The notes under the pieces were generated by a model. That model was given only the letters and a program-made list of their open reading frames with translations, did not search any database and had not been told where the DNA came from. From an uncultured Gammaproteobacteria bacterium (GTDB taxonomy: Bacteria; Patescibacteriota; Patescibacteriia; Patescibacteriales; GWE2-39-37): a DNA stretch of 64,000 nucleotides. The position numbers and the translations under genes are program-made. Of the stretch, positions 9,812 through 49,559 are shown piece by piece (positions within the stretch are counted from its first letter, which is position 1; each line of letters starts with the position of its first letter). The stretch is from assembly GCA_964443495.1 (NCBI GenBank), contig CAYUCS010000003.1, forward strand, positions 68,031 through 132,030, given 5' to 3'.

Positions 9812-10345
9812 TTACGGCGAGACGTTCCAGTTTGCGCTTCCGCCAATGCCGGTGACGATAAAATTTATCACCGCCCAGCTGACAAATACGATTACCAGTC
9901 CGATAACAGCCCCGATGATGATTGATTTTCCCTTGGCCACCTTATCACTTGACCCCTGGGAAAGCAATAGCACGAAGCCGCCATAAACGAACATTAGCAA
10001 AGCCAGGGAACCGACAATGCCCTCGATCCACTTGGCAATGTTCACTGCTAACTGCAGAAAGTCATTAAGCTCATAGTCGCCAGCCTCTTTCTTTGACTTG
10101 CTTGGGTCAACTTTGCTTTGTCCATCAGGTATTATTGCTGTGCCTTTGCAGCATTCTTGGTAATTGGGGTCGCTTGGCGATGTGCCTGGGCACGCACCGC
10201 GTGAAACGCACGAAAGCCCCGTTGCAGGTTTCATGCAGCTTTCCCCTGCCAAACAAGAAGCCGCATTAGCAGTTTTTGCAACCGTCGAGATGAGGAGCAA
10301 CAGCATAAAAGCTATCGCGCATTTTTGAAGTATTTTTTTTATCAT
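9812..10345 (-). CDS. TrbC/VirB2-like pilin-family small membrane protein (Cys-rich secreted N-domain plus two TM helices)
   Basis: Start taken at ATG 10345 (the track start 10354 is TTG). It has a signal peptide and a Cys-rich region. This is followed by WIEGIVGSLALLMFVYGGFVLLLSQGSSDKVAKGKSIIIGAVIGLVIVFVSWAVINFIV, the two-helix hairpin typical of VirB2-like pilins common in CPR genomes. Confidence 0.55.
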   Translation of the reverse strand: MIKKILQKCAIAFMLLLLISTVAKTANAASCLAGESCMKPATGLSCVSRGACPGTSPSDPNYQECCKGTAIIPDGQSKVDPSKSKKEAGDYELNDFLQLAVNIAKWIEGIVGSLALLMFVYGGFVLLLSQGSSDKVAKGKSIIIGAVIGLVIVFVSWAVINFIVTGIGGSANWNVSP

Positions 10346-10350
10346 AAAAA

Positions 10351-11808
10351 TCAATAAACGGTCTGCTGAACCTTTTGCACTGCCCGATCCATCGTGCCGA
10401 CAATGTCATCTTGATTGGCCACGGCCTCATCAATCATCTGATTAAAAATAGTCTCGGCCGCCAATGCATCCTTGCCGCGATACCAGCTTTTGGCGGTAAG
10501 CACCTGGCTGGCAAAAATTCCTAGTTCGGGAATCTGTGTCTGCTGTTCGACTAATGAACGCAAGGCGGTCGGCCTCTTAGATTTAGCGATGTAGGTCTTG
10601 GCTTGCTCCTCCTTAGTGATGAACTGGACAAAATCCCAGGCCGCATCCCTCTTCAGCCGAGGATAATCGCCGCCTTTTTTCAGATTCTCCGGGTTGGTCA
10701 TAATCTTTTTCGAAACCGTCTCGACCCAATAATTAGCATAATTGATCGACTGGCCGCCATTCTCAATCTGCGGCAATTTGGCGATTGCGAAGTTCAATTT
10801 AGGCGCCTCGGCCTTGATGGTTGGCAGGTGATAAGAATAGCCAAACATCATAGCCAATTGATTATTGACGAAAAGCTTCAAAGAATCGTCCATTTCCTTA
10901 TTCCAGCTATAGACCTCTTTTGACGGATTGGCAAAGTCGGTATAAAAACGCAAAGCTTCCAAGCCAGGGTTGTACTTAATACCCTTATCTGGCGGCACCT
11001 GATTGAACAACGGCTGGCCCGCCGCCGACATCATGTCTGCGCCGTTCTGCATCATCAGCGTGGAAAGAATATCGAATGAGCGCTGGATATTGGCCGCACC
11101 GCCCAAGGCGACACCCGACTGAATGATCTGGCCCTTAGTGTCTTGCTTGGTCAGCTTTTTAACATACTGCTGAAAAGTGCGGTCCCAATATACTGGAGGT
11201 TCGGCGATGCCGGCATTGTTAAACAGGTCCTTGTTGTAATAAAGCGCCAAGGTATCGATAAACAACGGGAGACCATATACCTGTTCCTTCAAGGTCTTGT
11301 TGTCTTTTTGCAGCACCTTGATCACTACGTCATCATAAACGGTGTCGACAAAGGTCGTCTTGATGTCTTTCGGTTTGATTGATTCGGTCGTTTTGACGAC
11401 ATTGACCAGCTCCTTCTTAATGCTGCCCTGGGTGGTCTGATAAACCAACGAGGTCTTGTCCGGCATCGGCTCGATCTTGTTCTGGTATTTTTTGATCCAA
11501 GTGCTCGGGATAGAGAAGATGTCCGGTCCGCGATCTTCAGCAAAAGCGTTCAGAAGCTCGCTTTCATATTCCTCATAACGGAATTTGCGGTATTCGATCT
11601 TGATATTCGAGTGCATCTCAGAATATTTCTTCAACTGCTCTGAAAAAGTGCTCGTATCATCCCAGACACGCCAATAAGTCAAGGTAATCGGCTTTAATCC
11701 GGCCGTCACGGTCGCGTCCTGCGTCTTGCAGCCGAAGCCTGAGGTTACAATGAAGATACCCAGCAAGAAAATTATTCCTTTCTTTTTATTCATATGGTTA
11801 TTTTTCAT
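10351..11808 (-). CDS. Extracellular solute-binding lipoprotein (ABC-type, family 1); no permease or ATPase genes adjacent
   Basis: Lipobox-like FIVTSGFGC, then TLTYWRVWDD...LLNAFAEDRGPDIFSI, typical of sugar/oligosaccharide SBPs; 485 aa. Confidence 0.85.
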   Translation of the reverse strand: MKNNHMNKKKGIIFLLGIFIVTSGFGCKTQDATVTAGLKPITLTYWRVWDDTSTFSEQLKKYSEMHSNIKIEYRKFRYEEYESELLNAFAEDRGPDIFSIPSTWIKKYQNKIEPMPDKTSLVYQTTQGSIKKELVNVVKTTESIKPKDIKTTFVDTVYDDVVIKVLQKDNKTLKEQVYGLPLFIDTLALYYNKDLFNNAGIAEPPVYWDRTFQQYVKKLTKQDTKGQIIQSGVALGGAANIQRSFDILSTLMMQNGADMMSAAGQPLFNQVPPDKGIKYNPGLEALRFYTDFANPSKEVYSWNKEMDDSLKLFVNNQLAMMFGYSYHLPTIKAEAPKLNFAIAKLPQIENGGQSINYANYWVETVSKKIMTNPENLKKGGDYPRLKRDAAWDFVQFITKEEQAKTYIAKSKRPTALRSLVEQQTQIPELGIFASQVLTAKSWYRGKDALAAETIFNQMIDEAVANQDDIVGTMDRAVQKVQQTVY

Positions 11809-13516: not shown

Positions 13517-16138
13517 TCATTGCTTATCGACCGCCCTGGCATCTTCCAGCTTGATGCTCAAAAGCTTGGAAACGCCATCATCGCCCATGGTTACGCCATA
13601 CAAGACATTGGCCTTGCGCATGCTTGCCCGATTGTGAGTTATGACGATGAACTGCGTCTTATACGACAGGTCATCGAGGATCTTGGCCAGACGCTCGGAA
13701 TTAGCTTCGTCCAGCGCCGCATCGACTTCGTCCAGAACGACGAACGGCGACGGGTTGACGTTGATAATGGCGCAAATCAGGGCGATCGCGGTCAGGGCAC
13801 GCTCGCCGCCAGACAGCATGGCGATCGACTTGATCTTCTTGCCTGGGGGAGTGGCCTGAATCTCGATGCCCGCCAAGCCGGTCGCATTATACTTCTGCAG
13901 ATACTTTATCTTCTTGATCTGTTCTTTCCGAAGCTCTTCTTGGGTAACAAGGGGAGCGTCCTCGGCTTCAGCATCCTCGCTGTTTTCCATAACCTTGATA
14001 ATCTTAGCCGAGCCGCCATTGAACAATATCTTGAAGTACTCCTCGAACTTGGCGGCGATAACCTTGAATTTCTTGTCGAACTTATCCTTGATGACTACGT
14101 CAAGCTCCTTGATGATTTTCTCCAAAGACGAAATGGCGTCAGCTAAATCCTTGATCTGATGCGACAAGAAATCGAATCGCTCCTTGGTTTGAAGATATTC
14201 CTTTTCAACCTCGGGATCGATGCCGCCGATATGCTCCAGCTGCCGCTTAAGGCTGTTGATTTTCTCGCTGATCGGCCCTATTTCAACGGCACCCTCGATC
14301 CTTTCCGCCTTCACCTCCTTCAAGCTGCCCAAAGATTGCCTGATTTCTCCCTCCAAATCCTCCAGCTTGGTTCCATATCTGGTCGACCCGACTTGCAGGT
14401 CGTTCAATTGGCGGCTAAACTGGTTGATTTCGTTTTGCAACGACTGAAGGCTGTTCTGCATCTCGAACAGCATGGCCCTTTCAGCCGCCTCAGATTTTCC
14501 GACTTCGCTGATTTTGGCACGTAATTCAGCTAAGTTGGCTTCAATCTCTGAGGCCCTGGCCTTAAGCTGCTCCTGTTCCTTGCTTAGTTCGCCGAAGTCC
14601 AGTTGATTCTGATGCTGCTTGAGCTTCTGCTCCAGCTGCCTCAGCTCTTGTTCAAGCTGCTGCCTATGCTGTTTCAAGACCTTGGCTCGCTCGATCTGCG
14701 GCCAAGACTTGGCGCTCTGTTCGCCCAATCTTTGCGTCAGCTCCTCCCTCTCCTCAGTCAAGCGGATCAGCTCAGTGTGGATCTGTTCCAAAGTTTCGCC
14801 GCCGCCCACTTTATTGGATAGTTTCAAGATTTCTTCGACGTCGTTTTTGATTTCGGAAAATATAAGTCGTGCCTGATCGATGTCCTGGGCTTGTTCCGCT
14901 TGCTCCAACTTGACGAAAAGGTTCTTAAGCTCCTGATTGATTTTCTTTATCTCCTCCTCATTCAACGAACTGCTGGTTTTAACCAAATTCGAATTCAGCT
15001 CCCTGATTTTTGCGGTCAAGGCATCTCTTTGCTGGACAAGGCTCTTTTCCGCTCGCTCGAAACTCTCGATATTTCCCATGAGGCTGGAAATCTCTTCATC
15101 CAGCTTCGACTTTTCGACGGTCAATTCCCCTTGCTTATTCTTGAGCCAAGACAAGTCGAACTGCCCGCTAGATTCAAGGCGAACCTCGAGCTGCGCATCG
15201 ATTCTTGCCAGCTGGCGATGGATTGATTCGCGCTCAGACTCCAGCTGCGCAACCTCAGCGCGCCAAGCCACCAGCTCCTGATTGACGAGGCTCTTCTGCT
15301 GCAGTTGCGACAATCTCTGCCTTAATGATTCCAGCTTCCTGTCCTTCTCCAATTTATTCTTTTCAACTTGCAAATATTCCTGATTATACTGCGAAAATTT
15401 GTCATTGATCTCGTGCCAAAGCTTGCGATAATATACCAGCTCCAAGCTCCTTAGTTCCAGCTCTAATTCGCCCCGGCGCTGCAATCGGCTGACCTGTTTA
15501 GTGAGGCTTTTGAGGCGCGGTTCGATTTCCGCCAAAATCATCTCGGCTTGTCCGGAATTCTCATAACTTGCGAGCAGCTTATTCAAGGCCTCGTCTCGCT
15601 TTATCTGATACTGCTTCACTCCTGTGGCCTCATCGAAAAATTCCTTGCGTTCAGACAAACTAGTATTTAAGAACCCTTCAACCATGCCCTGCCCAATGAC
15701 GCTATAAGTCTTTTGTCCGAAGCTTGATTTAGCCAAAAGCAATTGGATGTCTACCAGTCGTACGCGATTGTTGTTGATCAGATATTCGCTATTGCCATCC
15801 CGATAAAGGCGCCGAGTCAAAACAACCTGAGCATAATCTATCGGAGCTTTGCGGTCCTCGTTATTCAAAAAAAGAGAGACTTCGGCCATGCTTAATTTTG
15901 ACTTCTTGTCTGACCCGGAAAAGATCACGTCTTCCGACTTCTTGCCTCGCAAGGTTTTCATGCTCTGTTCGCCTAAAACCCATCTTACCGCATCGGCCGT
16001 ATTAGACTTGCCAGAGCCATTCGGCCCGACGATGGCAGTGATCCCTCTTTTGTCCTCAGTCACCATGCCAGGAAAAACCAGCAAATTCTTGCTGGCGAAT
16101 GACTTGAAGCCCTGGATTTCCAATTTTTCCAAATACAT
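13517..16138 (-). CDS. smc: SMC-family chromosome partition ATPase, short form without a recognisable hinge
   Basis: Start taken at ATG 16138 (MYLEKLEIQGFKSF...). It carries Walker A GPNGSGKSN, the signature LSGGERALTAIAL and Walker B FVVLDEVDAALD. At 873 aa it is shorter than typical SMCs (about 1150-1200 aa). The middle ~480 aa is uninterrupted coiled-coil-like sequence. Confidence 0.85.
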   Translation of the reverse strand: MYLEKLEIQGFKSFASKNLLVFPGMVTEDKRGITAIVGPNGSGKSNTADAVRWVLGEQSMKTLRGKKSEDVIFSGSDKKSKLSMAEVSLFLNNEDRKAPIDYAQVVLTRRLYRDGNSEYLINNNRVRLVDIQLLLAKSSFGQKTYSVIGQGMVEGFLNTSLSERKEFFDEATGVKQYQIKRDEALNKLLASYENSGQAEMILAEIEPRLKSLTKQVSRLQRRGELELELRSLELVYYRKLWHEINDKFSQYNQEYLQVEKNKLEKDRKLESLRQRLSQLQQKSLVNQELVAWRAEVAQLESERESIHRQLARIDAQLEVRLESSGQFDLSWLKNKQGELTVEKSKLDEEISSLMGNIESFERAEKSLVQQRDALTAKIRELNSNLVKTSSSLNEEEIKKINQELKNLFVKLEQAEQAQDIDQARLIFSEIKNDVEEILKLSNKVGGGETLEQIHTELIRLTEEREELTQRLGEQSAKSWPQIERAKVLKQHRQQLEQELRQLEQKLKQHQNQLDFGELSKEQEQLKARASEIEANLAELRAKISEVGKSEAAERAMLFEMQNSLQSLQNEINQFSRQLNDLQVGSTRYGTKLEDLEGEIRQSLGSLKEVKAERIEGAVEIGPISEKINSLKRQLEHIGGIDPEVEKEYLQTKERFDFLSHQIKDLADAISSLEKIIKELDVVIKDKFDKKFKVIAAKFEEYFKILFNGGSAKIIKVMENSEDAEAEDAPLVTQEELRKEQIKKIKYLQKYNATGLAGIEIQATPPGKKIKSIAMLSGGERALTAIALICAIINVNPSPFVVLDEVDAALDEANSERLAKILDDLSYKTQFIVITHNRASMRKANVLYGVTMGDDGVSKLLSIKLEDARAVDKQ

Positions 16139-16479: not shown

Positions 16480-16761
16480 TTAGCATAAATATGCAAATGA
16501 TAATTTATTTGTCTCTTCTTGCATCACATTTCCCTGTTCCACTTTCTGATTTTGCAATTGTTCGGCAGACACAATCCCCTGGTACGTTACCGACAAAGCC
16601 TGGGCACTTCCTAAGACAATAAAAAAAGCAATGGACAGACTAAGTATGAGTCCAGACATGCTGAACTCCTGCTCCATTGCTTTCTTTTTGATCGAATTGT
16701 ACGAGCGCCAGGTCATCAAGCCGAACTTGAACTCAACCGAACGCAAATTGCGAGTGGCCAT
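16480..16761 (-). CDS. Hypothetical small bitopic membrane protein (93 aa, or about 65 aa from the internal Met)
   Basis: This is the only ORF in a promoter-to-terminator unit. It has one TM helix (GLILSLSIAFFIVLGSAQALSV) and a Gln/Glu-rich tail. I see no recognisable family and no clear SD. Confidence 0.4.
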   Translation of the reverse strand: MATRNLRSVEFKFGLMTWRSYNSIKKKAMEQEFSMSGLILSLSIAFFIVLGSAQALSVTYQGIVSAEQLQNQKVEQGNVMQEETNKLSFAYLC

Positions 16762-16834: not shown

Positions 16835-18280
16835 CTACTTTATAGCTAACTTTAGCGCTTTTTTATATAATTCTACGTACTGTTTTGCCGGTTTTAACCA
16901 AGAATAGTCCTGACACATGACAGTAGCTTGGCGCTCTTTCCATGCTAAAGGACTGGAGCAATATGCACGCATCGCCTTTTTTATGCTTTTCGACAATTCC
17001 TTAGCCTCATATTTCTCAAAAACAAAGCCCTTCCTGTTTGTAACGGTGTCAGCCAGGCCGCCCGTCTTGCGCACCAGGGGCAGGGTACCGTATCGCATGG
17101 CAATAAGCTGGCCCAGTCCGCAAGGTTCATACCTGGAAGGCATGAGAAAAACATCTGAGCCGGCATAAATCCGCTGAGCCAATTTAGCGTCAAAACCGAT
17201 TACTGCCTTGACCGTCTGGGGATATTTTTGTGACCAACTCCTCAACCGTTCCTCAACCTCTTTCTGGCCTGTGCCCAAAAAAATGAATTGCGCCTTGAAT
17301 TCGGCAATTTTCTCTTCAAGCAGATCCAGTCCTTTTTGACTGACTAAACGTGAAACCAAGCCGAAAACCGGCGTATCCGGCGATTCAGGCAGGCCTAATT
17401 CTTTTTGCAACTCCAGCTTATTTGCAAGTTTTTTATCAAGACAGGTGGCGTCGTAATTTTGCAGCAAGCAAGGGTCGGTGGCCGGATTGAAAAAGCTTGC
17501 ATCGATGCCGTTAACTACGCCGTAAAGGTCCGCTTGCCTTCGTTCAAGGATCTTTTCCAGGCCGGCACCCTGTTCGGAGGTCAAAATCTCTTTGGCGTAG
17601 GTCTTGCTAACAGTGTTGACTATATCCGCGCCCAGGATTCCCATGGCCATAAAATTGACATCTTTGCCATCAAGACATGACATGTCAACAATATTGTTGT
17701 TCGGCAATCGTAACTCAGACCGGCTATATTTTCCCTGATTGGCTAAATTATGGATAGTGTATACTGTTTTCGTGTCAGCAAAATATGAGCTTGCTTTTTT
17801 CTTTTCCTCCTCTAAAAATGCTAAAAGGGTAGCCGTGTGCCAATCGTTCAAATGGATTATTTGCGGCTTGAATCTGATCGCCTCCATCGACACTAATGCT
17901 GCTTGACCGAATAAGATGAATTTTTCCACTTCGGAAACCTTTAAATCCGTCCCGATTATCTGCTCATGAGAATAAATTTCTTGCCCGGAAAAAAATGGAT
18001 GCTCCAGCAGGCACAATTTGACCCTGCTGTCGGGCAGAGTTGTTTGCCAGACGGAAAGATTGAAACCGCCCCCCTGATCCACAGTCAAGTCTTTCGCCAA
18101 CAACTCTAGCTTCAAGGCACTCCTATCAATCGAACCGTAAAAGGGAATATACACTGTGACATCGATGCCGACATCAAGCAAGGTTTTTGGCAACGCTCCG
18201 ATAACGTCGCCCAAACCGCCAACTTTGGCAATAGGTGTCAACTCAGCGCCAAGAAGCGCTACGGATATTTTTTTAGGCAT
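16835..18280 (-). CDS. glgA: Glycogen/starch synthase (GT5, GlgA-like), copy 1
   Basis: N-terminal KVGGLGDV motif and C-terminal PSRYEPCGLGQLIAMRYGTLPLVRKTGGLADTV; 481 aa. Confidence 0.9.
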   Translation of the reverse strand: MPKKISVALLGAELTPIAKVGGLGDVIGALPKTLLDVGIDVTVYIPFYGSIDRSALKLELLAKDLTVDQGGGFNLSVWQTTLPDSRVKLCLLEHPFFSGQEIYSHEQIIGTDLKVSEVEKFILFGQAALVSMEAIRFKPQIIHLNDWHTATLLAFLEEEKKKASSYFADTKTVYTIHNLANQGKYSRSELRLPNNNIVDMSCLDGKDVNFMAMGILGADIVNTVSKTYAKEILTSEQGAGLEKILERRQADLYGVVNGIDASFFNPATDPCLLQNYDATCLDKKLANKLELQKELGLPESPDTPVFGLVSRLVSQKGLDLLEEKIAEFKAQFIFLGTGQKEVEERLRSWSQKYPQTVKAVIGFDAKLAQRIYAGSDVFLMPSRYEPCGLGQLIAMRYGTLPLVRKTGGLADTVTNRKGFVFEKYEAKELSKSIKKAMRAYCSSPLAWKERQATVMCQDYSWLKPAKQYVELYKKALKLAIK

Positions 18281-21959: not shown

Positions 21960-23435
21960 TTATTTTTTACCGTTCAAGGTTAGCGCCTTTTTGTATAGCG
22001 CAATGTATTTTTTCGCCGGAAGCTCCCAGCTGTTCGATTCTTTCATCGCCCTGACCACCAGGTTTCTCCAAGAATCTTTATGTCGATAATTCTCCAAGGC
22101 GCGCACGATGGTGGCGAACAGAGAAAACTGATTGAAATTTGAAAAACTGAAGCCGGTTCCTCGTCCGGTGCGCGGATTGAAGTTGGTTACCGTATCATGC
22201 AAGCCGCCAACCCTTCTAACTACAGGTATGCAACCATACCGCATAGCGATAAGCTGGTTGATACCGCAAGGCTCATGGTGCGAAGGCAACAAAAAGATAT
22301 CGGAAGCGGCATAGACCATGGTCTCTAGCTGTTTGTTGCCAGAAAACGGAATCCAAACTAATTTTTTAGGATGCTTTTTCTGCTGTTTCTTCAATTCACT
22401 GATATACTTCTTGTCTCCATCGCCCATGATCACGATCTGGACATCGAGGCCGGTTAATGGCTCAAGCAAAGGCAAAACCAACTCAAAGCCCTTTTGAAAC
22501 GTCACACGTGAAGTCAAGCTGATCAATGGAATGTCGCGGTCAACCGGCAGGCCAAGCTTCTTTTGCAGATGTTCTTTGTTCAGCTTTTTACGATGAATCT
22601 TACGATAATCGTAGTTCTTGAACAAGAATTTGTCGTTTGAAGGGTTGTACGTGCGATAATCAATGCCATTGATAATGCCAAATAAACGATCTTGCCGGTG
22701 GCGTAAAATGCGGTGCAAATCTTGACCGAATTTTCTTGTCATAATCTCTTCTCGATATTGCTCACTTACCGTATTGATAACATCAGCCGACAAGATGCCC
22801 CTCTTGGCCAGATTGACGTATTCAAAATCCGGATTATTGATATCGGGCAACGCTTTTTTGCCATAATCCTTTTTTGCCAAAGGAACTTCCCACCAATTCC
22901 TGCCTAGCTGAAAGACGAGGTTATGGATAGTATACACCGTCTTAGCTTTGCTTAGGACTTTGGAATATCGGAAATCGTTCTTTAATAAAAACGGGATCAG
23001 TCCGGTCTGCCAATCATGGCAATGGATGATGTCAGCCTCAAAGCGAATCAACGAAATCAACTTCAGGGCAGCGGCGTCAAAAACCATAAAACGAGCATTT
23101 TCGTGGTCTGATCCATAAAGTGCCTTGCGCTGCGAAAAATATTTTTTCTGCTCAACGAAATAAACAGGCAGCCCTTTCATAAGATAGGCCTGCCAATAAT
23201 TAACCAAGACATACTCGGTCGAATTCAAATAAACCTTAACATCGCGATGCACTAGCTTCAGTCCATGCTCCTTCGCATCGATTGCTTTAGCATAATACGG
23301 CATGATTATTATGACATCATGCCCTAGGCGCTTCAGGGCTTTTGGCAAGCTACGCGCCACATCGGCCAGGCCTCCGGTCTTGGCAAAGGGAGCGACTTCG
23401 CTTGATATGCTGGCAATCTTCAGTTTTTTTATCAT
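21960..23435 (-). CDS. Glycogen/starch synthase (GT5, GlgA-like), copy 2
   Basis: KTGGLADV motif and PSHHEPCGINQLIAMRYGCIPVVRRVGGLHDTV; 491 aa. It has a 4-nt overlap with ruvC. Confidence 0.9.
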   Translation of the reverse strand: MIKKLKIASISSEVAPFAKTGGLADVARSLPKALKRLGHDVIIIMPYYAKAIDAKEHGLKLVHRDVKVYLNSTEYVLVNYWQAYLMKGLPVYFVEQKKYFSQRKALYGSDHENARFMVFDAAALKLISLIRFEADIIHCHDWQTGLIPFLLKNDFRYSKVLSKAKTVYTIHNLVFQLGRNWWEVPLAKKDYGKKALPDINNPDFEYVNLAKRGILSADVINTVSEQYREEIMTRKFGQDLHRILRHRQDRLFGIINGIDYRTYNPSNDKFLFKNYDYRKIHRKKLNKEHLQKKLGLPVDRDIPLISLTSRVTFQKGFELVLPLLEPLTGLDVQIVIMGDGDKKYISELKKQQKKHPKKLVWIPFSGNKQLETMVYAASDIFLLPSHHEPCGINQLIAMRYGCIPVVRRVGGLHDTVTNFNPRTGRGTGFSFSNFNQFSLFATIVRALENYRHKDSWRNLVVRAMKESNSWELPAKKYIALYKKALTLNGKK

Positions 23436-32819: not shown

Positions 32820-32870
32820 AATGTTCCACGTGGAACATTCTTCCGTGCAATTGTTCCACGTGGAACAATT
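32820..32870. promoter_or_regulatory. Two perfect palindromes sharing the core GTTCCACGTGGAAC (candidate twin operator)
   Basis: AATGTTCCACGTGGAACATT (32820-32839, 20 bp perfect) and AATTGTTCCACGTGGAACAATT (32849-32870, 22 bp perfect). The centres are 30 bp apart. They lie between the tRNA terminator and the trxB promoter region. Confidence 0.5.
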
Positions 32871-34532: not shown

Positions 34533-35258
34533 CTAAGCTTGTTTTTTCATTCTGAAAACCAAGAACTGCTGCAATACTGTTAATAGGGTCATGACAAGCC
34601 AATATAGAGACAGGCCTGCCGGCAAAGTTATGCCAATAAATACGGTTAACGCTGGCATCATGTACAGCATCTGCTTGTTCATCACGGCTGCGAAATCCTC
34701 ATCTTTTGCGCCTTCATCCTGGACGGTTGGCCGCTGGTTCGAAAGCATCTTGGCCTGCCAGAACTGGGCCAAGCCGGCAAGCACAGCGAGTAAATAGTTC
34801 GGGTTGGCAAGATTAATGAGTCCGAAAAATCCCTGCGGATTAATTGCCTCCGGCCTACTGACAAACCCGTAAAGGTAATCCAATATTTGCTTGTTTGTGC
34901 TGATTTCACGAAAAACCTGAAAGACCGCAAAAAAGAAAGGCAGCTGGATCAACAAGGGCAGACACGAAGAGAAGGGGTTAATCTTGTGTTCACGATAAAG
35001 CGCCATGGTGGCCTTGGCTTGCTCTTCTTTGTTGCTGGCGTGAACTTTTTTAATTTCTTCCAGTTTAGGCTGCAGTTCTTGAAGTTCTTTTTGAGCCTTG
35101 ATCGCTTGCCGAGAAAATGGCCACAAGAACAATTTAATCAAAATCGTTATGATAATTATCGCGATGGCTAAATCATGCCCAGGGATGAAGTTATAAATAA
35201 CTACCAATAAATTAAGAATCGGCTTATAACAAACCGCGATAAACAAATCATTAAACAT
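34533..35258 (-). CDS. yidC: Membrane protein insertase YidC (short form)
   Basis: KLFLWPFSRQAIKAQKELQELQPKLEEIKK...NPFSSCLPLLIQLPFFFA...LYW; 241 aa. Confidence 0.9.
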   Translation of the reverse strand: MFNDLFIAVCYKPILNLLVVIYNFIPGHDLAIAIIIITILIKLFLWPFSRQAIKAQKELQELQPKLEEIKKVHASNKEEQAKATMALYREHKINPFSSCLPLLIQLPFFFAVFQVFREISTNKQILDYLYGFVSRPEAINPQGFFGLINLANPNYLLAVLAGLAQFWQAKMLSNQRPTVQDEGAKDEDFAAVMNKQMLYMMPALTVFIGITLPAGLSLYWLVMTLLTVLQQFLVFRMKKQA

Positions 35259-35280
35259 AAAAGGTTGTTTGTATTATTTT

Positions 35281-35526
35281 TTAAACCGGGTCAAACCCGC
35301 CTTTGCTCCAAGGATTGCATCGTAAAATTCTCCAAGAGGCCTTGAATGTGCCCTTGACCGCACCGTGTTTTTCAATCGCCTGGATAGCATACTCCGAGCA
35401 GGTGGGGTAATACCGGCAATAACCGTGCGGATAAAGGTGCTTTAGCCAACCATGGTCAAAGGAGAGCGTCTTTTGGTAAATCTTTATGAGCCCGATAAGA
35501 AAATACTGGGGCAAGGCCTTTAACAT
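35281..35526 (-). CDS. yidD: Membrane protein insertion efficiency factor YidD
   Basis: [23 protein letters not shown]...RILRCNPW. Confidence 0.9.
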
Positions 35527-35527
35527 A

Positions 35528-35869
35528 TTATTTTTTTATTTTTAAACGCCTCATATTATAAAGATAAGACTTCTCCAAATCAGCAAAAGGCTGCCCAAGG
35601 GCAGCCGGTAGTGCTATAACAACCAAGTCGTTGCCAAAATCAGCATCAAGGGTATGTTTGGTTGCGATGTATCTAATTTGCCTTCGCAAACGATTTCGTA
35701 ATACAGCTTTTTTGCTAACCTTATTGCTAATTATTATACCCAACCTCGCCTCCGAGAGGGTATTCGGCTTTGCTTTAATGCCCAATAATTGGTCATAACT
35801 AGCCCTCCCTGTTTTAAAGACGGAATCAAAGTCCTTTTTTTTCCGTAAATGACCAATTGGGCTAGGCAT
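35528..35869 (-). CDS. rnpA: Ribonuclease P protein component
   Basis: Basic 113-aa protein with the RNR-like motif ([12 protein letters not shown]); positioned between rpmH and yidD. Confidence 0.9.
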
Positions 35870-35881
35870 AAGCCTGATCGA

Positions 35882-36019
35882 TTATTTGGTTAATTTCTTG
35901 CGGCCTTTTGCGCGGCGCCTTTTAATGACATTGCGGCCATTCTTAGTGGCCACCCTTTTCAAAAAACCATGCTTCTTGCTCGCTCGTTTCTTGTTGGGCT
36001 GATAAGTTCGTTTTGGCAT
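35882..36019 (-). CDS. rpmH: 50S ribosomal protein bL34 (below the ORF-track size cutoff)
   Basis: My own translation of the minus strand: [45 protein letters not shown]. Confidence 0.9.
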
Positions 36020-36279
36020 AACCTTTACATTATTATAAATATCCTTAAGATAAAAAGGTCTAGGTACTTTGTATAAGTAAAAAGCCCCTGACCTTAAAAG
36101 AAGATTCTAAAAAATACTAACATCTTTAAAGCTTTTAGTCAATTGTCGACAGGGCATGCATTTATAGACATATCAACAGTTTATACACAGCCCAAGCCCT
36201 TTCTTATAGTTGAAGCCCCTGTTATACTTTCATCATCAAAGACCTCTCATTTTAAATCTTCAAAATAACCCCCTTGCTT
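36020..36279. other. rpmH-dnaA intergenic region with weak DnaA-box-like motifs (possible upstream oriC/dnaA-promoter part)
   Basis: TTATACACA (36181-36189, 1 mismatch to TTATCCACA) and TTATAGACA (36162-36170, 2 mismatches). Confidence 0.35.
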
Positions 36280-37638
36280 ATGAACAATGAACAGCTTTGG
36301 CAGGCTGCCTTAGGTGAAATCGAGCTAACACTATCCCGAGCAAACTTCACCACCTGGTTCAAAGACACCTTTATTTCCTCCTTTGAAAACAATCAAGCTG
36401 TTGTTTGTGTTCCTAACACCTTCACTAAGGCTTGGCTGGAAAAAAAGTATCATCAAGAAATCTTAAGCGCTTTAAAAAGCGTAACCAGCCAACCAATAAA
36501 GGATATTTTTTATAAGGTTGAAGCGCGTAAGACGGCCCCGGTCTCCGACATTGTAAAACGCGTACGACCAACCGATACGGAAAGGCTGCACACCGAAGTC
36601 CTGCCAATCAATCGTTTCGGGTTAAACAACCGCTACACCTTTGACAACTTCGTCGTTGGCAAGGGCAATGAACTGGCACACGCCGCTTGCCAGGCGGTAG
36701 CCTCCAATCCTGGCAATGCCTACAACCCTCTTTTTATATATGGCGGAGTCGGGCTGGGCAAAACCCACCTACTGCAAGCGATTGGACACAACCTCTCAAA
36801 AAAGACCGACAAGATCATGTATATCACCTCTGAGAAGTTTACCAACGACTACATTCAGGCGGTTAAAAGCGGTCAAGCTCGCGAGTTCAAAGAAAGATAC
36901 CGTAACGTTGATCTCCTCCTTATTGATGATATACAGTTCATGGCTGGAAAAGATGGCACGCAAGAAGAGTTTTTTCACACCTTCAATGAACTCCATCAAA
37001 ACAACAAGCAAATCGTCCTAACTTCCGACCGTCCTCCAAAATCCATTCCAGCTTTAGAAAAACGCCTGCTTTCGCGCTTTGAATGGGGCATGATTGCCGA
37101 CGTCGGACAGCTCGACGTCGAGACAAGAATGGCCATCCTTGAACGTAAATGCCGAGAAAAAAACTATTCACTTGAAAATGAAATACTATCCTATGTGGCC
37201 GCCAATGTCCAAAACAACATAAGGGAGTTGGAGGGCGCCCTCAACAGGTTGATTGCTTATCACGAATTCAACAACTACAAGCCAACCATGGAAACTGCCA
37301 AAAACATCTTGGCAAGCATCATTATCAACTATCAACAAAAATCCACCAATGCCAAGTCGGTTATCGATGCCGTGGCACGTTTTTATGATGTGGCCGTTAA
37401 AGATATCACTGGCCAGAGCCGCAAGAAGGAGTTGGTTACGCCGAGGCAAATAATCATGTTTCTTTTGCGAGAAGAGGTAAATGCCTCATTCCCAACCATC
37501 GGCCAAGAGCTGGGCGGACGGGATCACACAACAGCGATGCACGCACACAATAAAATATCTAAAGAAATACAGGAAAACGAGCGCCTAAAACAAGAGTTAG
37601 AATCCATTAAACAACTTATCTACAGTGCCAGTGTATAA
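36280..37638 (+). CDS. dnaA: Chromosomal replication initiator DnaA
   Basis: ATG at 36280 (MNNEQLWQAALGEI...). Walker A GGVGLGKTHLL, Walker B LLLIDDIQF, and a C-terminal DNA-binding domain (...GGRDHTTAMHA). Confidence 0.97.
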   Translation: MNNEQLWQAALGEIELTLSRANFTTWFKDTFISSFENNQAVVCVPNTFTKAWLEKKYHQEILSALKSVTSQPIKDIFYKVEARKTAPVSDIVKRVRPTDTERLHTEVLPINRFGLNNRYTFDNFVVGKGNELAHAACQAVASNPGNAYNPLFIYGGVGLGKTHLLQAIGHNLSKKTDKIMYITSEKFTNDYIQAVKSGQAREFKERYRNVDLLLIDDIQFMAGKDGTQEEFFHTFNELHQNNKQIVLTSDRPPKSIPALEKRLLSRFEWGMIADVGQLDVETRMAILERKCREKNYSLENEILSYVAANVQNNIRELEGALNRLIAYHEFNNYKPTMETAKNILASIIINYQQKSTNAKSVIDAVARFYDVAVKDITGQSRKKELVTPRQIIMFLLREEVNASFPTIGQELGGRDHTTAMHAHNKISKEIQENERLKQELESIKQLIYSASV

Positions 37639-37901
37639 CTTTTGTGACTCCTTTTACGGCACAAACGCTCCGTGCAAAACCTTGAAGAGATTTTGGATAA
37701 GTCGGGCCAATTCAAGGATTACCCACAAAAGCAAAAAATAACCCACACAGCCACCAAGAACCCCGCACAGGTTTGCCAAAAAATTTCACGCAAACATTAA
37801 AGCCAAAACCAGGTTTTCAACTTATCCCGCGCCTTATTATCATTATTACTGTATCTTAAATATATATTTATTAATTAATAAATAACTAGTGAAGATTGTG
37901 T
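37639..37901. other. Probable oriC core: DnaA-box cluster plus AT-rich unwinding tract between dnaA and dnaN
   Basis: TTTGGATAA (37693-37701, reverse complement TTATCCAAA), TTACCCACA (37720-37728) and TAACCCACA (37740-37748). They are followed by a ~65-bp tract of almost pure A/T (37825-37890). Confidence 0.55.
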
Positions 37902-39026
37902 ATGAAATTTTCTAGTCTGCAAGAGAACCTAAAGCAAGGGTTATTTATAGCGGGACACCTGACTGGTAAAAATCAAAACCTCCCGATTTTGAATAATGTG
38001 CTGATTGAGGCTAAGCAGGGGAACATAAAACTAGTTTCAACAAACCTGGAGATTGGCATAAGTTGTGTCGTTCGGGGTAAAGTTGATCAAGAGGGGTCCT
38101 TTACGGTTGATGCGAAGATACTGGCTGACTATATTAACTTGCTGCCTAATCAAAAGATAGATATAGGGCTCAATAATAACTCCCTTACGATTACTTGTGA
38201 TAGTTACAACACTAAGGTCAAGGGTCAGTCAGCTGAAGATTTCCCCCTGATCCCTGTTGTAGAAAGGGGGAACTTCTGCAAAGTTCCGGTTCATCAATTT
38301 CGCAAAGCCCTGAATCAGGTTGTTTTTGCGGTTTCAACAAATGAAACCAGGGTTGAGCTCACTGGAGTTTTATTCAATTTGAATAATAAAGAGCTTGTTT
38401 TAGCCGCAACTGATAGTTATAGGTTGGCTGAGAAAAAGATCGGGGTTAAGGAAAGCACCATTGAGAGCGCCAGTGTCATAGTGCCGGCAAAAACGATCCA
38501 AGAGGTTGTTAGGATTATTTCGGGAACGAAAGATGATGTGGCTGGTGAAACGGAAGACGTTGAGGTTTATATTTACGAAAACCAGATTCTGTTCGTTTAC
38601 GGCTCAACCGAAGTGGTGTCTCGACTCATTGAAGGTCAATATCCGGATTATCGACAAATAATACCTGGTCAAGCCAAAACTAAGGCGGTTATTGAGCAGC
38701 AGCAGATTATGCGTGCCGTCAAGGCTTCGTCATTATTTGCTAAAACAGGAATTAATGATATTAATTTAGACTTCCCCAAAAACAAAGGCGGACTAGTCGT
38801 GTCCTCAGCCTCGGGGCAGACTGGTGAGAATATTGTCGAGGTTCCAGGCAAGATTGAGGGTGAGGATAATTTTGTGGTGGTGAACTATCGTTATTTATTG
38901 GACGGATTAAACACGATTGGTGGTGATGAGGTGGTGTTTGAGGTTGTGGATGGCAACACGCCATGTCTTTTGCGGCCCGCCGACAGCTCTGATTATCTTT
39001 ATATAGTGATGCCAATAAAACAGTAG
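37902..39026 (+). CDS. dnaN: DNA polymerase III beta sliding clamp
   Basis: ATG at 37902 (MKFSSLQENLKQGL...). Three-domain length (374 aa), with the ATDSYRLA motif. Confidence 0.95.
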   Translation: MKFSSLQENLKQGLFIAGHLTGKNQNLPILNNVLIEAKQGNIKLVSTNLEIGISCVVRGKVDQEGSFTVDAKILADYINLLPNQKIDIGLNNNSLTITCDSYNTKVKGQSAEDFPLIPVVERGNFCKVPVHQFRKALNQVVFAVSTNETRVELTGVLFNLNNKELVLAATDSYRLAEKKIGVKESTIESASVIVPAKTIQEVVRIISGTKDDVAGETEDVEVYIYENQILFVYGSTEVVSRLIEGQYPDYRQIIPGQAKTKAVIEQQQIMRAVKASSLFAKTGINDINLDFPKNKGGLVVSSASGQTGENIVEVPGKIEGEDNFVVVNYRYLLDGLNTIGGDEVVFEVVDGNTPCLLRPADSSDYLYIVMPIKQ

Positions 39027-43082: not shown

Positions 43083-43109
43083 GCGACTTTTAACCAGGAG
43101 TACGTTTGG

Positions 43110-46100: not shown

Positions 46101-46739
46101 GGACGAACAGTGCATGCCGTAAAGCGAGAGGTTGGCGCGCTTGGCATGGTCGGCGCCAGCAATCGGATTGGCATTTAAGAGCGGAGCTGAGGCCTCATTC
46201 ATTTTCGCCGCTGCCACGGTGGGGGTGGGTGCCGCGGTTTTGTGGCTGCCTAGTAAAGAATCGAATAAGCCGGCCAGATTGGCAGTGTTGCTCAGTTGGT
46301 CGACGAATTCCTTGGCTTCGGCCTGGCCTTCTGGCACGCTGAATTCGGCCAGCTTGTCGTTATGGATCTTGCCTTCGAAATATGGCCGGCCGTTATTGTC
46401 GGAAAGCACGCGCCCTTCGGCTTCAATCTTGGCCTCAAGCTTGATTTTTAATGGTTGATCGTCGCCAGCCCGTTGTTTTTTGACCGCAATCTGGCTGGCG
46501 GCCAGCTTGGCTGGGGCGGCCGGATTAGCAATGGTCGCCTTGTAGCCGGCTCGTTCGATGGCAGCTAGGATATCATCGGGGGACGCTTGGGCAGGGTCCA
46601 GTTGCACCGTGGCGCGGCCAGTCTGGTGGTCGATGCTGATGTTAGTGACTCCTGCCAACTCCTCCAGCTCAGCGGCAATGATCTTTTCGCAGGATGCGCA
46701 GTGCATGCCCGAAATAAATAGTTCTATCTGTTGTTTCAT
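43110..46739 (-). CDS. copA: Copper-translocating P1B-type ATPase with two N-terminal HMA domains, an extra C-terminal TM helix and a ~235-aa C-terminal repeat domain
   Basis: HMA motifs GMHCASC and GMHCSSC, TM6 CPC ([12 protein letters not shown]), [13 protein letters not shown] and TGES. The core ends about aa 950 ([12 protein letters not shown]). A further 259 aa follow in the same frame. Confidence 0.9.
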
Positions 46740-46744
46740 AGGGG

Positions 46745-46948
46745 TTAGTTAATTGAGTAATCGGTTCCCTTGAGCGCGTCTTTGACCTCTTCGAGACTGA
46801 CTTTCCGCTCGGCCGTAATGGTGGTGCGGCCGGTTGCCGAATCGACGAGGATATTGCTGACGCCCGGGATTTTGGAAAGTTTCATGGTGCAAAGCTTAGC
46901 ACAAGCACTACAAGTGAGTCCTTGTATCGAAAATGTTTGCGTATTCAT
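46745..46948 (-). CDS. copZ: Copper chaperone CopZ (single HMA domain)
   Basis: [19 protein letters not shown]...; 67 aa. Confidence 0.85.
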
Positions 46949-46956
46949 ATGAAGAG

Positions 46957-48768: not shown

Positions 48769-48831
48769 AGTTAAGTCAGTTAAATAAAATAAACTTGCAG
48801 GCATGGGGCTGCCTGTTTAACTGAGCCAACT

Positions 48832-49224
48832 TTAGATCCGTAGCACGATGGTATCGAGAGCAATCTGGCTAGGAGGTGCCTGAAAGCTTTTTGGCTTCGG
48901 CAAACCATGGCTAATGGGCAATGATTCGCCGAGACGTGATGATGGTATTAGAAAAGATTTGTTGAATTCGTAAATCGCCAGCAGCGGTGCAGCGGTGCTG
49001 CCTTTCTTGTCGGCACAACATGGCAGGATATCTTTTTGCGCGCCGTCTTCCTTCTTTTCCCCGCCGGCTTTTTCGTGAGCATGGCAAGCGCCATAGCTTT
49101 CCGCAGCCGACAAAGAGGGGGCGGCGTTCATAAGAAACGCGTGAAAAAAATTCGCCATCATCAAGCCGATGATTACGGAAATCATCCCGACATGACGCAA
49201 GTTTTTTATTATTCCCCCAGTCAT
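48832..49224 (-). CDS. Hypothetical Cys/His-rich bitopic membrane protein of the copper operon
   Basis: Its ATG directly abuts the csoR stop (TGAATG). It has one TM (VGMISVIIGLMMANFFHAFLM) and then CHAHEKAGG and LPCCADKK motifs. I recognise no family. Confidence 0.6.
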   Translation of the reverse strand: MTGGIIKNLRHVGMISVIIGLMMANFFHAFLMNAAPSLSAAESYGACHAHEKAGGEKKEDGAQKDILPCCADKKGSTAAPLLAIYEFNKSFLIPSSRLGESLPISHGLPKPKSFQAPPSQIALDTIVLRI

Positions 49225-49494
49225 TCAGTTGAATTTTTTATAAACTTCAAGAAGCTCCGCGACGGTTTGCTGCTCACGGTCCTCCTTGATGGCATTGACC
49301 ACGCAAGTCTTCAAGTGGTTTGATAGCAGAACCTCCTCAGCCTTTTTAATAGCCCCGCGGACGGCCGATGCCTGCTGTATGATGTCGAGGCAGTAGGCAT
49401 CCTGCTCGATCATCTCGATGATCTTGTTAAGATGTCCGGCGGTTATCTTCAGTCGCCTGGTGGCGTCTTTTTTGGCGCAAGAAATGGGGCTCAT
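49225..49494 (-). CDS. csoR: CsoR/RcnR family metal-sensing transcriptional repressor
   Basis: ATG at 49494 (MSPISCAKKDATRRLKITAGHLNKIIEMIEQDAYCLDIIQQ...HLKTCV). The Cys-His-Cys ligand pattern matches Cu(I)-sensing CsoR. The operator lies just upstream of this start. Confidence 0.85.
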   Translation of the reverse strand: MSPISCAKKDATRRLKITAGHLNKIIEMIEQDAYCLDIIQQASAVRGAIKKAEEVLLSNHLKTCVVNAIKEDREQQTVAELLEVYKKFN

Positions 49495-49506
49495 AAATAT
49501 TCTTAT

Positions 49507-49525: not shown

Positions 49526-49530
49526 CTGTT

Positions 49531-49559
49531 AATATATCCGGTGCAGGAGAATAAGTCAA
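49531..49559 (-). promoter_or_regulatory. Candidate promoter of the csoR-copA operon
   Basis: Minus strand: TTGACT (49559-49554), 17 nt, TATATT (49536-49531). Confidence 0.5.

What the first reader, a model, noticed from the sequence alone, without database searches (positions are those of the whole stretch)
13517..16138. SMC homologue with canonical ATPase heads but no recognisable hinge domain (about 300 aa shorter than usual)
Seen: the 873-aa product has a normal SMC N-terminal head (FKSF..., Walker A GPNGSGKSN, roughly aa 1-165). It also has a normal C-terminal head (LSGGERALTAIAL signature, Walker B FVVLDEVDAALD, roughly aa 700-873). Everything between about aa 170 and 650 reads as continuous Q/E/K/L/R-rich coiled-coil-like sequence. 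The only obvious helix breakers are KTSSS (about aa 391-395) and KVGGGE (about aa 446-451). I cannot find the ~150-aa glycine-rich globular hinge that sits in the middle of bacterial SMCs. Established: SMC homodimerises through the hinge, whereas relatives such as RecN and Rad50/SbcC use other apex solutions. Inference: this could be a minimal-apex SMC that folds back at a short loop. If so, the condensin ring would have to close in a different way.
Basis: partly seen in the sequence, partly recalled or inferred. Interest (0 to 1): 0.6.

Follow-up and report, generated by a model that had tools for sequence, protein, structure and literature searches.

The report
Hinge-less SMC with small helical cap
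This ultra-small (Patescibacteria/CPR) bacterium and hundreds of its relatives have a chromosome-organising SMC ATPase in which the supposedly universal globular "hinge" is replaced by a conserved ~55-residue helical cap, so nature offers a test of what the hinge is for.

Summary
Window 13517-16138 (minus strand) encodes an intact 873-aa SMC. It has canonical heads, neck and joint, and scores above the NCBIfam SMC cut-off (631 vs 567 bits). No hinge was found by Pfam, by PDB sequence search, by tblastn with hinges of related CPR SMCs, or by AlphaFold2, which predicts only helix between the heads.

It is not an assembly artefact. Hundreds of independent assemblies of Falkowbacteria and other Parcubacteria carry colinear 860-915-aa versions, and dN/dS to the closest relative is 0.014.

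The nearest hinge-bearing relatives (about 1000-1060 aa, e.g. Magasanikbacteria) have arms of similar length. Their ~165-aa hinge sits where this protein has aa 390-447: loop, helix, loop, helix, loop. This module is conserved. An HMM built from it recovers a left-out member at E=1.6e-17 and none of 10 hinge-bearing proteins.

Hinge-less relatives come in three length classes that differ by paired indels in both arm strands. Related copies sit at the canonical smc locus, next to rpsP-trmD-rplS.

How the protein dimerises, and whether ScpAB is present, could not be tested. A 2025 paper reports hinge-less SMCs in ocean data; none found describes them in CPR.

The parts
13517..16138 (-). smc gene, 873 aa, hinge-less
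   Evidence: ORF and translation. SMC_N at E=6e-68 with no PF06470. TIGR02168 631 bits against a cut-off of 567. dN/dS 0.014 to the 97%-identical relative.
15644..16138 (-). N-terminal half of the ATPase head (aa 1-165), including Walker A GPNGSGKSN at 16001-16027
   Evidence: Aligns to B. subtilis Smc heads 5xg3/3zgx at E~1e-103.
14972..15616 (-). N-terminal arm strand (aa 175-389). Helix breaks at aa 283-286 and 324-326; GQFDLSWL motif at aa 325-332.
   Evidence: AF2 helices 175-282, 287-323 and 327-389. The motif is duplicated in the 1040-1090-aa relatives.
14960..14971 (-).
   Evidence: Helix break in both AF2 models. Indel hot spot: 80 of 82 relatives have an insertion after aa 393.
14891..14959 (-). 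Cap helix T1 (aa 394-416)
   Evidence: AF2. Core positions 397, 400, 407, 408 and 411 are >=0.84 hydrophobic across 83 diverse relatives, and Gln404 is conserved in 37 of 83.
14882..14890 (-). Inner loop of the cap (aa 417-419, AQD). The heptad spacing collapses to 3-3-3-3 around it.
14807..14881 (-). Cap helix T2 (aa 420-444)
   Evidence: AF2. Positions 420, 423, 430, 434, 437 and 441 are >=0.83 hydrophobic.
14798..14806 (-).
   Evidence: Helix break. 76 of 82 relatives have an insertion after aa 447.
14021..14797 (-). C-terminal arm strand (aa 448-706). Break at aa 511-515; joint insertion at aa 603-642 (nt 14213-14332).
   Evidence: AF2 helices 447-510, 516-602, 620-637 and 643-706. The arm next to the head is the best-conserved part of the arm.
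13520..14020 (-). C-terminal half of the head (aa 707-873): signature LSGGE at 13802-13816, Walker B FVVLDEVD at 13721-13744
32822..32867 (.). Context: two identical palindromic parS-like sites TGTTCCACGTGGAACA (32822-32837 and 32852-32867), about 3.5 kb from dnaA
   Evidence: 3 matches at <=3 mismatches against 0.32 expected; 0 of 100 shuffles reach 3. Sequence read.
36274..39026 (+). Context: dnaA-dnaN at the GC-skew switch. The replication origin region lies about 20 kb from smc.
   Evidence: Pfam. GC skew changes sign at about 38 kb.

Best explanation
This is the lineage's ordinary chromosomal Smc (the Smc-ScpAB type condensin ATPase). Its globular hinge has been replaced in evolution by a small, conserved, all-helical apex module.

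Shown:
- The heads, the neck motif and the joint are canonical and under strong purifying selection.
- The arm strands run aa 175-389 and aa 448-706.
- Between them, where hinge-bearing relatives carry ~165 aa of hinge, lie loop 390-393, helix 394-416, loop 417-419, helix 420-444 and loop 445-447.

Supported by modelling: the two short helices fold back onto the ends of the arm strands to form an up-down-up-down four-helix cap. KTSSS and GGG are then the two distal loops.

Inferred:
- The protein still works as a homodimeric SMC-kleisin motor, loaded near the origin. parS-like sites lie 3.5 kb from dnaA.
- The two subunits are held at the apex by cap-cap packing (side by side or domain-swapped) and are reinforced by arm-arm zipping.
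- The mean arm length of ~243 aa falls at a length mode that is known to be functional.
For: Identity as Smc:
- TIGR02168 scores above its cut-off.
- The heads match B. subtilis Smc at E~1e-103.
- Rad50, RecN, ASRP and defence models score far below cut-off or match the head only.

No hinge.

Conserved, selected trait:
- The 120 best hits are 799-953 aa (all but three 868-892), and none has PF06470.
- 137 of the 150 closest 50%-identity representatives are hinge-less.
- At least 156 GTDB species genomes encode a relative.
- dN/dS is 0.014 for the whole gene and 0.009 for the cap.

Orthology:
- Hinge-less copies in other lineages, and the hinge-bearing P0150, both lie upstream of rpsP/KH/trmD/rplS.
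- P0150 (with hinge) and P0151 (without) are 56% identical and colinear except at the apex.
- Named hinge-bearing hits are Magasanikbacteria and never Falkowbacteria. Named hinge-less hits are Falkowbacteria or Parcubacteria.

Apex anatomy:
- AF2 helix boundaries.
- The hinge of relatives aligns opposite aa ~393-447.
- Paired indel hot spots after aa 393 and aa 447.
- Paired deletions and duplications in both strands of the 750-aa and 1040-1090-aa classes.
- Conserved core pattern with hydrophobic doublets.
- The cap HMM finds left-out P0151 at E=1.6e-17 and 0 of 10 hinge-bearing proteins.
- The fragment model has pLDDT 84 and pTM 0.69. Its best TM-scores are to four-helix-bundle folds (0.46-0.62), against 0.30-0.36 for plain hairpins.

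Plausibility from the literature:
- B. subtilis Smc works with 253-267-aa arms and with its hinge replaced by a Rad50 zinc hook. Natural arm-length modes lie at 238 and 341 aa (PMC5344682).
- Arm contacts contribute to dimerisation of hinge-less Smc (PMC5526789).
Against: - No dimer model or experiment exists. The cap's hydrophobic positions could all be used within one subunit, leaving nothing for dimerisation.
- The distal loops are variable, so they are unlikely to be an interface.
- ScpA, ScpB and ParB were not found in the 64-kb window or in ~1 Mb of related flanking DNA. The latter was only a strict motif search.
- A second, hinge-bearing smc elsewhere in the genome cannot be excluded from one window.
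- The folded-back topology rests on non-significant Foldseek matches (best E=0.07) and on my recollection of the TorS fold.
- The full-length AF2 model has poor heads and only 59-74 pLDDT at the cap.
Confidence: 0.6

Rival explanations
1. Same protein and same orthology, but the cap is only a helix terminator. The two Smc subunits are not joined at the apex at all. They are held together by arm-arm zipping, ATP-dependent head engagement and the kleisin bridge, so the SMC compartment is not covalently closed at the top.
For: - The cap can satisfy all its conserved hydrophobic positions within one subunit as a four-helix bundle.
- The distal loops are variable indel hot spots.
- The cap is no better conserved than the arms (dN to P0003).
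Against: - In B. subtilis the hinge could be replaced by another dimerisation domain, the zinc hook, not simply removed (PMC5344682).
- The cap is a recognisably conserved module across very divergent classes, which suggests more than a turn.
- The hydrophobic doublets exceed what a plain two-stranded coil needs.
Confidence: 0.3
2. It is an extra, specialised SMC-like paralogue (repair or defence, RecN/Lamassu/MADS-like) that coexists with a normal hinge-bearing Smc encoded outside the window.
For: - The whole genome was not available.
- PADLOC gives mad3 at 201 bits and LmuB at 71 bits.
- In this window smc is not next to rpsP/trmD.
Against: - The defence hits are generic head similarity, and the neighbours are housekeeping genes.
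- TIGR02168 scores above its cut-off, whereas RecN scores 41 bits against a cut-off of 408.
- Relatives occupy the canonical smc locus.
- No Falkowbacteria-named protein appears among the 120 closest hinge-bearing CPR SMCs.
- The 2025 ocean study likewise found no co-occurrence for its hinge-less cluster.
Confidence: 0.06
3. Artefact or misreading: an assembly deletion, a decaying pseudogene, or a hinge too divergent for profiles to recognise.
For: Profile searches can miss very divergent domains. Metagenome assemblies can collapse sequence.
Against: - The same architecture appears in hundreds of independent assemblies from NCBI, JGI, ENA and Logan.
- The reading frame is intact and dN/dS is 0.014.
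- Only ~55 residues are available where a hinge needs ~165, and they are predicted as all-helical with pLDDT 65-84.
Confidence: 0.02

Closest known systems
Canonical bacterial Smc of Smc-ScpAB (B. subtilis type; NCBIfam TIGR02168)
   Same: The heads match at E~1e-103 to 5xg3/3zgx. Walker A, signature, Walker B, neck motif (ERKEFFDEATGVKQYQIKRDEALNKL) and joint are present, with an antiparallel coiled-coil arm. The protein scores above the equivalog cut-off, and relatives lie at the smc/rpsP-trmD locus.
   Different: There is no PF06470 hinge; a ~55-aa helical cap takes its place. The arms are ~243 aa (mean of the two strands), against 344 aa in B. subtilis. Kleisin partners were not seen in the available DNA.
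Hinge-bearing Patescibacteria Smc (e.g. Magasanikbacteria MBI5728833.1 = P0247; P0150)
   Same: 39-44% identity to the window protein and similar arm length. P0150 is 56% identical (heads ~80%) to the hinge-less P0151 and sits in a similar genomic context.
   Different: They carry a ~165-aa PF06470 hinge (E=1e-26 to 1e-31) exactly where the window protein has aa ~393-447.
Engineered mini-Smc and Smc(Zh) chimeras of B. subtilis (Burmann et al. 2017, PMC5344682)
   Same: They show that Smc can function with 253-267-aa arms and with the hinge exchanged for a different apex dimeriser. They also show that arm length is quantised: natural modes at 238 and 341 aa, with a period of ~91 aa. The hinge-less classes here differ by ~90-97 aa per strand (long vs middle class).
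   Different: Those proteins are artificial and use a Rad50 zinc hook. This one is natural, has no Cys pair, and uses an all-helical module.
'Hinge-less' SMC cluster from ocean metagenomes assigned to Actinomycetes (PMC12153180, 2025)
   Same: SMC heads plus a coiled coil, with no hinge and no CxxC motif. The authors judged it not to be a paralogue.
   Different: It has a different taxonomic assignment and habitat, and Patescibacteria are not mentioned. That paper describes no apex module or arm-length classes.
RecN; Rad50/SbcC; archaeal ASRP/ClsN
   Same: These are SMC-superfamily ATPases whose coiled-coil tips lack a globular hinge and dimerise by other means: tip-to-tip helices in RecN (from memory), and a zinc hook in Rad50 and ASRP (PMC9389158). 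They are functional analogies for a hinge-free apex.
   Different: The head sequences are not of these families: RecN 41 bits against a cut-off of 408, Rad50 models 39-48 bits against 700-1087, ASRP 71 against 300. There is no CxxC motif.

Membership tests
Bacterial Smc (TIGR02168, Smc-ScpAB condensin) | Split ABC-type head: N-terminal Walker A, and C-terminal signature, Walker B and H-loop | tested here: met
   GPNGSGKSN, LSGGE, FVVLDEVD and ITHNR are present. SMC_N at E=6e-68. B. subtilis Smc heads at E~1e-103.
Bacterial Smc (TIGR02168, Smc-ScpAB condensin) | Whole-protein score at or above the curated equivalog cut-off | tested here: met
   631.1 bits against a cut-off of 567.35.
Bacterial Smc (TIGR02168, Smc-ScpAB condensin) | Long intramolecular antiparallel coiled-coil arm with a joint near the head | tested here: met
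   AF2 predicts only helices over aa 175-706, with a joint insertion at aa 603-642. The fragment termini (aa 340s and 490s) are modelled at pLDDT 96-97. Foldseek TMt is 0.52 to the Pyrococcus head, coiled coil and joint structure 5xei.
Bacterial Smc (TIGR02168, Smc-ScpAB condensin) | Central globular hinge dimerisation domain (PF06470) | tested here: not met
   No Pfam hit at E<=10. phmmer with two CPR hinges gives no hit on the window protein, and non-hinge proteins reach only E>=0.19; the 10 hinge-bearing relatives score 1e-27 to 1e-50. No PDB hinge hit. No hinge-coding DNA in the window. No beta strand in the model.
Bacterial Smc (TIGR02168, Smc-ScpAB condensin) | Kleisin ScpA and KITE ScpB encoded in the genome | not testable with these tools
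   None among about 41 window ORFs scanned with Pfam. A strict ScpA/ScpB motif search of 1.07 Mb of related DNA found nothing, but this is uninformative.
Bacterial Smc (TIGR02168, Smc-ScpAB condensin) | Conserved chromosomal context (smc upstream of the ffh/rpsP-khpA-trmD-rplS region, as in Firmicutes) | tested here: inconclusive
   Met in many hinge-less relatives: S16, KH, TrmD and L19 neighbour clusters occur in 16-22 of 82 loci, and also in L084/L085 and hinge-bearing L083. Not met in this window, where the neighbours are glycogen synthase and comM.
Bacterial Smc (TIGR02168, Smc-ScpAB condensin) | Homodimerisation | not testable with these tools
   Only monomer prediction was available.
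RecN | TIGR00634 score at or above cut-off; short coiled coil (~550-aa protein) | tested here: not met
   40.9 bits against a cut-off of 407.85. The protein is 873 aa.
Rad50/SbcC and archaeal ASRP | CxxC zinc hook at the coiled-coil apex; family score | tested here: not met
   A single Cys, at aa 789. Rad50 models score 39-48 bits against cut-offs of 700-1087, and ASRP 71 against 300.
Defence SMC-like ATPases (Lamassu LmuB, Wadjet JetC, MADS mad3) | Specific profile match plus the partner genes of the system nearby | tested here: not met
   mad3 at 201 bits is a head-only 374-position profile. LmuB scores 71 bits and JetC <=35 bits. The neighbours are housekeeping genes and are syntenic in relatives.
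Ocean 'hinge-less SMC' cluster (PMC12153180) | SMC heads and coiled coil, with no hinge and no CxxC; membership of the same clade | not tested
   The architecture matches the description, but the sequences were not compared.

The most novel reading that the evidence does not exclude
A large part of the Patescibacteria organises its chromosome with an Smc that has no apex dimerisation domain at all. The four-helix cap merely ends each arm, and the two subunits are joined only through arms, heads and kleisin. If so, a topologically closed SMC lumen and a DNA-binding or DNA-gating hinge would not be required for bacterial condensin function. In addition, hinge and cap would behave as exchangeable cassettes: the close pair P0150/P0151 differs only at the apex, yet P0151's cap is homologous to caps of distant lineages.
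Probability: 0.25. Interest if true: 0.85.

Novelty: new variant of a known kind. Interest (0 to 1): 0.66.

Why it matters
The hinge is treated as a defining and essential part of SMC proteins. It is the stable dimerisation site, a DNA-binding surface and, in some models, a DNA gate.

A broad natural radiation of orthologous Smc proteins has swapped it for a ~55-85-residue helical cap. These proteins keep heads, neck, joint and quantised arm lengths (about 243 aa, and about 337 aa in the long class, against published modes of 238 and 341 aa). They provide a ready-made comparative system for asking which hinge functions are dispensable.

They also offer a compact natural module to test in B. 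subtilis chimeras, as was done with the Rad50 hook. Finally, the result warns annotators that these genes are often labelled only 'AAA family ATPase', and that protein length alone does not indicate a hinge: the 1040-1090-aa hinge-less class is as long as hinge-bearing CPR Smc.

Tried and rejected
- **Fold-back at the GGG loop (aa 445-447; register i+j ~891).** Rejected. It would need extra residues in the N strand, whereas the joint insertion is in the C strand. The helix lengths, the paired indels and the hinge position in relatives all fit aa 393 pairing with aa 447 (i+j ~838-840).
- **Finding the register by correlating hydrophobic profiles of the two strands.** Ambiguous: several sums score alike.
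- **NJ tree of the heads, to count hinge losses.** The tree is star-like and unresolved. Only the P0150/P0151 pair is informative.
- **Homologue search with an isolated CPR hinge.** It returned 1 protein from 187 candidates, a limit of the word index. A search was wasted.
- **Regex search for ScpA/ScpB motifs recalled from memory in 1.07 Mb of related DNA.** No hits, but this is not informative.
- **Conserved-neighbour clustering, looking for an apex partner.** It found only housekeeping genes and a 93-aa membrane protein restricted to close relatives.
- **Foldseek of the full-length model.** It only recovers SMC-family heads and arms.
- **dN/dS against the 91-92% identical relatives.** Synonymous sites are saturated, so the 97% relative was used instead.
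Full report
**1. The observation**

The finding's coordinates hold one ORF on the minus strand. The ATG is at 16138 and the stop at 13517-13519, giving 873 aa that begin MYLEKLEIQGFKSF. Homologues start at the same Met.

Walker A (aa 38-46), signature LSGGE (aa 775-779), Walker B FVVLDEVD (aa 799-806) and the H-loop ITHNR are intact. Pfam finds SMC_N over aa 2-857 (E=6e-68). It finds no SMC_hinge (PF06470) even with the threshold raised to E<=10. NCBIfam's bacterial SMC equivalog TIGR02168 scores 631 bits, above its cut-off of 567. RecN (41 against 408), the Rad50 models (39-48 against 700-1087) and archaeal ASRP (71 against 300) fail by a wide margin.

The heads match B. subtilis Smc heads (5xg3, 3zgx) at E~1e-103. 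The middle 180 residues match no solved hinge at E<=10. There is one cysteine in the whole protein, so no zinc hook.

AlphaFold2 with a 38-sequence alignment predicts nothing but helices between aa 175 and 706. The heads were poorly modelled there, but that does not bear on the question.

A tblastn search with the hinge domains of two related hinge-bearing proteins finds nothing in any frame of the 64-kb window or of the 82 hinge-less loci. The hinge-bearing control locus is recovered at 5e-103.

**2. Not an artefact**

The 120 best database hits are 799-953 aa (all but three 868-892), at 59-97% identity. None has PF06470. They come from NCBI, JGI, ENA and Logan assemblies, and the named ones are Candidatus Falkowbacteria or the Parcubacteria group.

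A 91%-identical copy lies in a syntenic 195-kb Falkowbacteria contig, GCA_013336275.1. Against the 97%-identical relative (86% nucleotide identity), dN/dS is:
- 0.014 for the whole gene;
- 0.009 for aa 390-447;
- 0.020 for the arms.

The gene, apex included, is under strong purifying selection.

**3. How widespread, and what the relatives look like**

An exhaustive search of 1.84 billion cluster representatives lists 150 closest relatives in distinct length classes:
- about 83 at 840-925 aa, colinear with this protein at 36-60% identity;
- about 44 at 715-785 aa;
- 10 at 1039-1092 aa;
- 10 at 995-1060 aa.

Only the last ten contain a hinge, shown by Pfam on two of them and by phmmer with their hinges on all of them.

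In one-genome-per-species GTDB data, at least 156 loci encode relatives. Named sources include Falkowbacteria, Nomurabacteria, Buchananbacteria, Kerfeldbacteria, Komeilibacteria and the Parcubacteria/Patescibacteria groups.

The 1039-1092-aa proteins are also hinge-less. They carry one ~90-aa insertion in the N strand and one ~97-aa insertion in the C strand. These duplicate the GQFDLSWL discontinuity and its partner, the '(K/D)FD' break. The ~750-aa proteins lack about 50 residues in each strand.

The arm has therefore been lengthened and shortened by paired changes in both strands. The long-versus-middle step of ~90-97 aa per strand equals the ~91-aa functional period and ~100-aa natural step reported for Smc arms (PMC5344682).

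**4. Anatomy of the apex**

Alignment with hinge-bearing CPR relatives places their ~165-aa hinge opposite aa ~393-447 of this protein. In canonical SMCs the residues just before and after the hinge pair in the coiled coil, so aa ~393 should pair with aa ~447. Independent support comes from four observations:
- AF2 helices 327-389 and 447-510 have matching lengths, as do 394-416 and 420-444.
- Across 83 diverse hinge-less proteins, the two sharpest indel hot spots are after aa 393 (80 of 82 sequences) and after aa 447 (76 of 82).
- The paired indels of the other length classes fit the same register, with sums of 822-838.
- The heptad spacing collapses to 3-3-3-3 only around aa 414-423.

With B. 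subtilis-equivalent head boundaries, the arm strands are ~233 and ~254 aa (mean ~243). The long class reaches ~337. Published natural modes are 238 and 341 aa, and the functional B. subtilis window is 253-267 aa. The arithmetic is my own.

**5. The apex is a conserved module, probably a four-helix cap**

Hydrophobic core positions in aa 394-474 are 80-98% conserved as hydrophobic across the 83 proteins. There are doublets at 400/401, 407/408, 437/438, 460/461 and 467/468. Glutamines are conserved at aa 404 (37 of 83) and aa 454 (43 of 83).

An HMM of the region built from the 840-925-aa class, leaving out P0151, gives these results:
- P0151's own apex at E=1.6e-17;
- 25 of 44 proteins of the ~750-aa class;
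- 4 of 10 proteins of the long class;
- none of the 10 hinge-bearing proteins.

A second AF2 run on aa 340-500 with a 25-sequence alignment gives mean pLDDT 84 and pTM 0.69, with the same four helices and termini at pLDDT 96-97. Foldseek finds no significant PDB match (best E=0.07). The highest TM-scores are to the TorS sensor domain (0.62, rmsd 5.1 A over 158 columns) and to long designed four-helix bundles (0.46). Simple two-helix hairpins reach only 0.30-0.36.

**6. Orthologue or paralogue?**

In many hinge-less loci smc lies next to rpsP (S16), a KH-domain gene, trmD and rplS (L19). From memory, this is the conserved neighbourhood of smc in Firmicutes.

The hinge-bearing P0150 and the hinge-less P0151 are 56% identical overall, with heads about 80% identical. 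They are colinear except at the apex, and both lie upstream of that ribosomal-protein cluster.

A search seeded with a Magasanikbacteria hinge-bearing Smc returns 120 proteins of 1006-1071 aa, all with PF06470. The named ones are Magasanikbacteria, Parcubacteria or Patescibacteria, and never Falkowbacteria.

These patterns favour replacement of the hinge within the single chromosomal smc. A second smc outside the window cannot be excluded. P0151's cap is homologous to caps in distant lineages while its heads are closest to a hinge-bearing protein. This hints at repeated loss or exchange of the apex cassette, but the head tree is unresolved.

**7. Context in the window**

- dnaA and dnaN lie at 36.3-39.0 kb, where the GC skew changes sign. 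smc is therefore ~20 kb from the origin.
- Two identical palindromic parS-like sites (TGTTCCACGTGGAACA) lie 30 bp apart at 32822-32867. No shuffle of 100 reaches the observed count. This fits ParB/parS-dependent loading, as known for canonical Smc, but ParB itself was not seen.
- No ScpA, ScpB or second SMC is present among the ~41 window ORFs scanned.

**8. Mechanism**

Shown: a selected, canonical Smc ATPase with neck and joint, whose hinge is replaced by a conserved helical module.

Inferred: it still acts as an Smc-kleisin complex. The cap either joins the two subunits by bundle-to-bundle packing or domain swapping (my preferred reading), or merely terminates each arm, with dimerisation left to arms, heads and kleisin (the main rival).

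Published engineering shows that the B. subtilis hinge can be replaced by a Rad50 zinc hook and the arms shortened to 253-267 aa (PMC5344682). Arm contacts are also reported to contribute to dimerisation of hinge-less Smc (PMC5526789). Both readings are therefore plausible.

**9. Novelty**

Full-text searches found no description of hinge-less Smc in Patescibacteria. [quoted passage not shown] The general phenomenon is therefore already published.

The following appear to be new:
- its breadth across Patescibacteria;
- the conserved cap module;
- the three arm-length classes;
- the close hinge-plus/hinge-minus pair.

I classify it as a new variant of a known kind.

Noticed in passing
window 32822-32837 and 32852-32867: Two identical perfect palindromes TGTTCCACGTGGAACA lie 30 bp apart in an intergenic region ~3.5 kb from dnaA. 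They differ from the parS consensus by a complementary pair of changes. No shuffle of 100 reaches the observed 3 matches. No ParB gene was seen in the window.
   Followed up: partly
window 34533-39026: Replication-origin region: yidC (34533-35258, -), dnaA (36274-37638, +) and dnaN (37896-39026, +). The GC-skew sign changes at ~38 kb. DnaA boxes were not searched for.
   Followed up: partly
window 16480-16761 (-): A 93-aa single-pass membrane protein with no Pfam family (motif W[KR]YYNxIKKKAMEQEFSWSGLLISLSIAFF). It is conserved upstream of smc, nearly always on the same strand (15 of 16), in 16 of 82 related loci, all close Falkowbacteria-type relatives. It is probably unrelated to smc.
   Followed up: partly
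loci L006, L010, L015, L027, L030 and many others: Many GTDB/ENA third-party (TPA) assembly records that carry this Patescibacteria-type smc are titled 'uncultured Gammaproteobacteria bacterium'. One is titled Planctomycetota. These are probably mislabelled or mis-binned records.
   Followed up: no
window ~43100-62400: Metal-handling island. The 44-48 kb part has higher G+C (0.53-0.545, against 0.41-0.50 elsewhere). It holds a 1209-aa P-type ATPase with HMA domains, a DsbD-HMA-cupredoxin fusion, a DsbA-like thioredoxin, Nramp, and an HlyD/CusB-like gene plus an AcrB/CusA-like RND pump. An RND tripartite-type pump is unexpected in a Patescibacterium. Horizontal acquisition is possible.
   Followed up: no
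P0150 (L083) vs P0151 (L084/L085): A closely related pair of Patescibacteria Smc proteins (56% identity, heads ~80%). One has a PF06470 hinge and the other a ~85-aa helical cap. That cap is homologous (E=1.6e-17) to caps of distant hinge-less lineages. This suggests recurrent loss or exchange of the apex cassette.
   Followed up: partly
window 16835-18280 and 21960-23435 (-): Two glycogen/starch-synthase-like genes (Glyco_transf_5 plus GT1) flank a GH57 gene, a PHP-domain gene, a kinase-like gene and a methyltransferase gene. The arrangement is conserved in the related Falkowbacteria contig.
   Followed up: no
window 9812-10354 (-) and related loci: A T4SS-pilin-like small protein and an HTH_25 plus Glucodextran_B-domain protein (RodZ-like N-terminus) are conserved downstream of smc/comM in 23-28 of 82 loci.
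   Followed up: no
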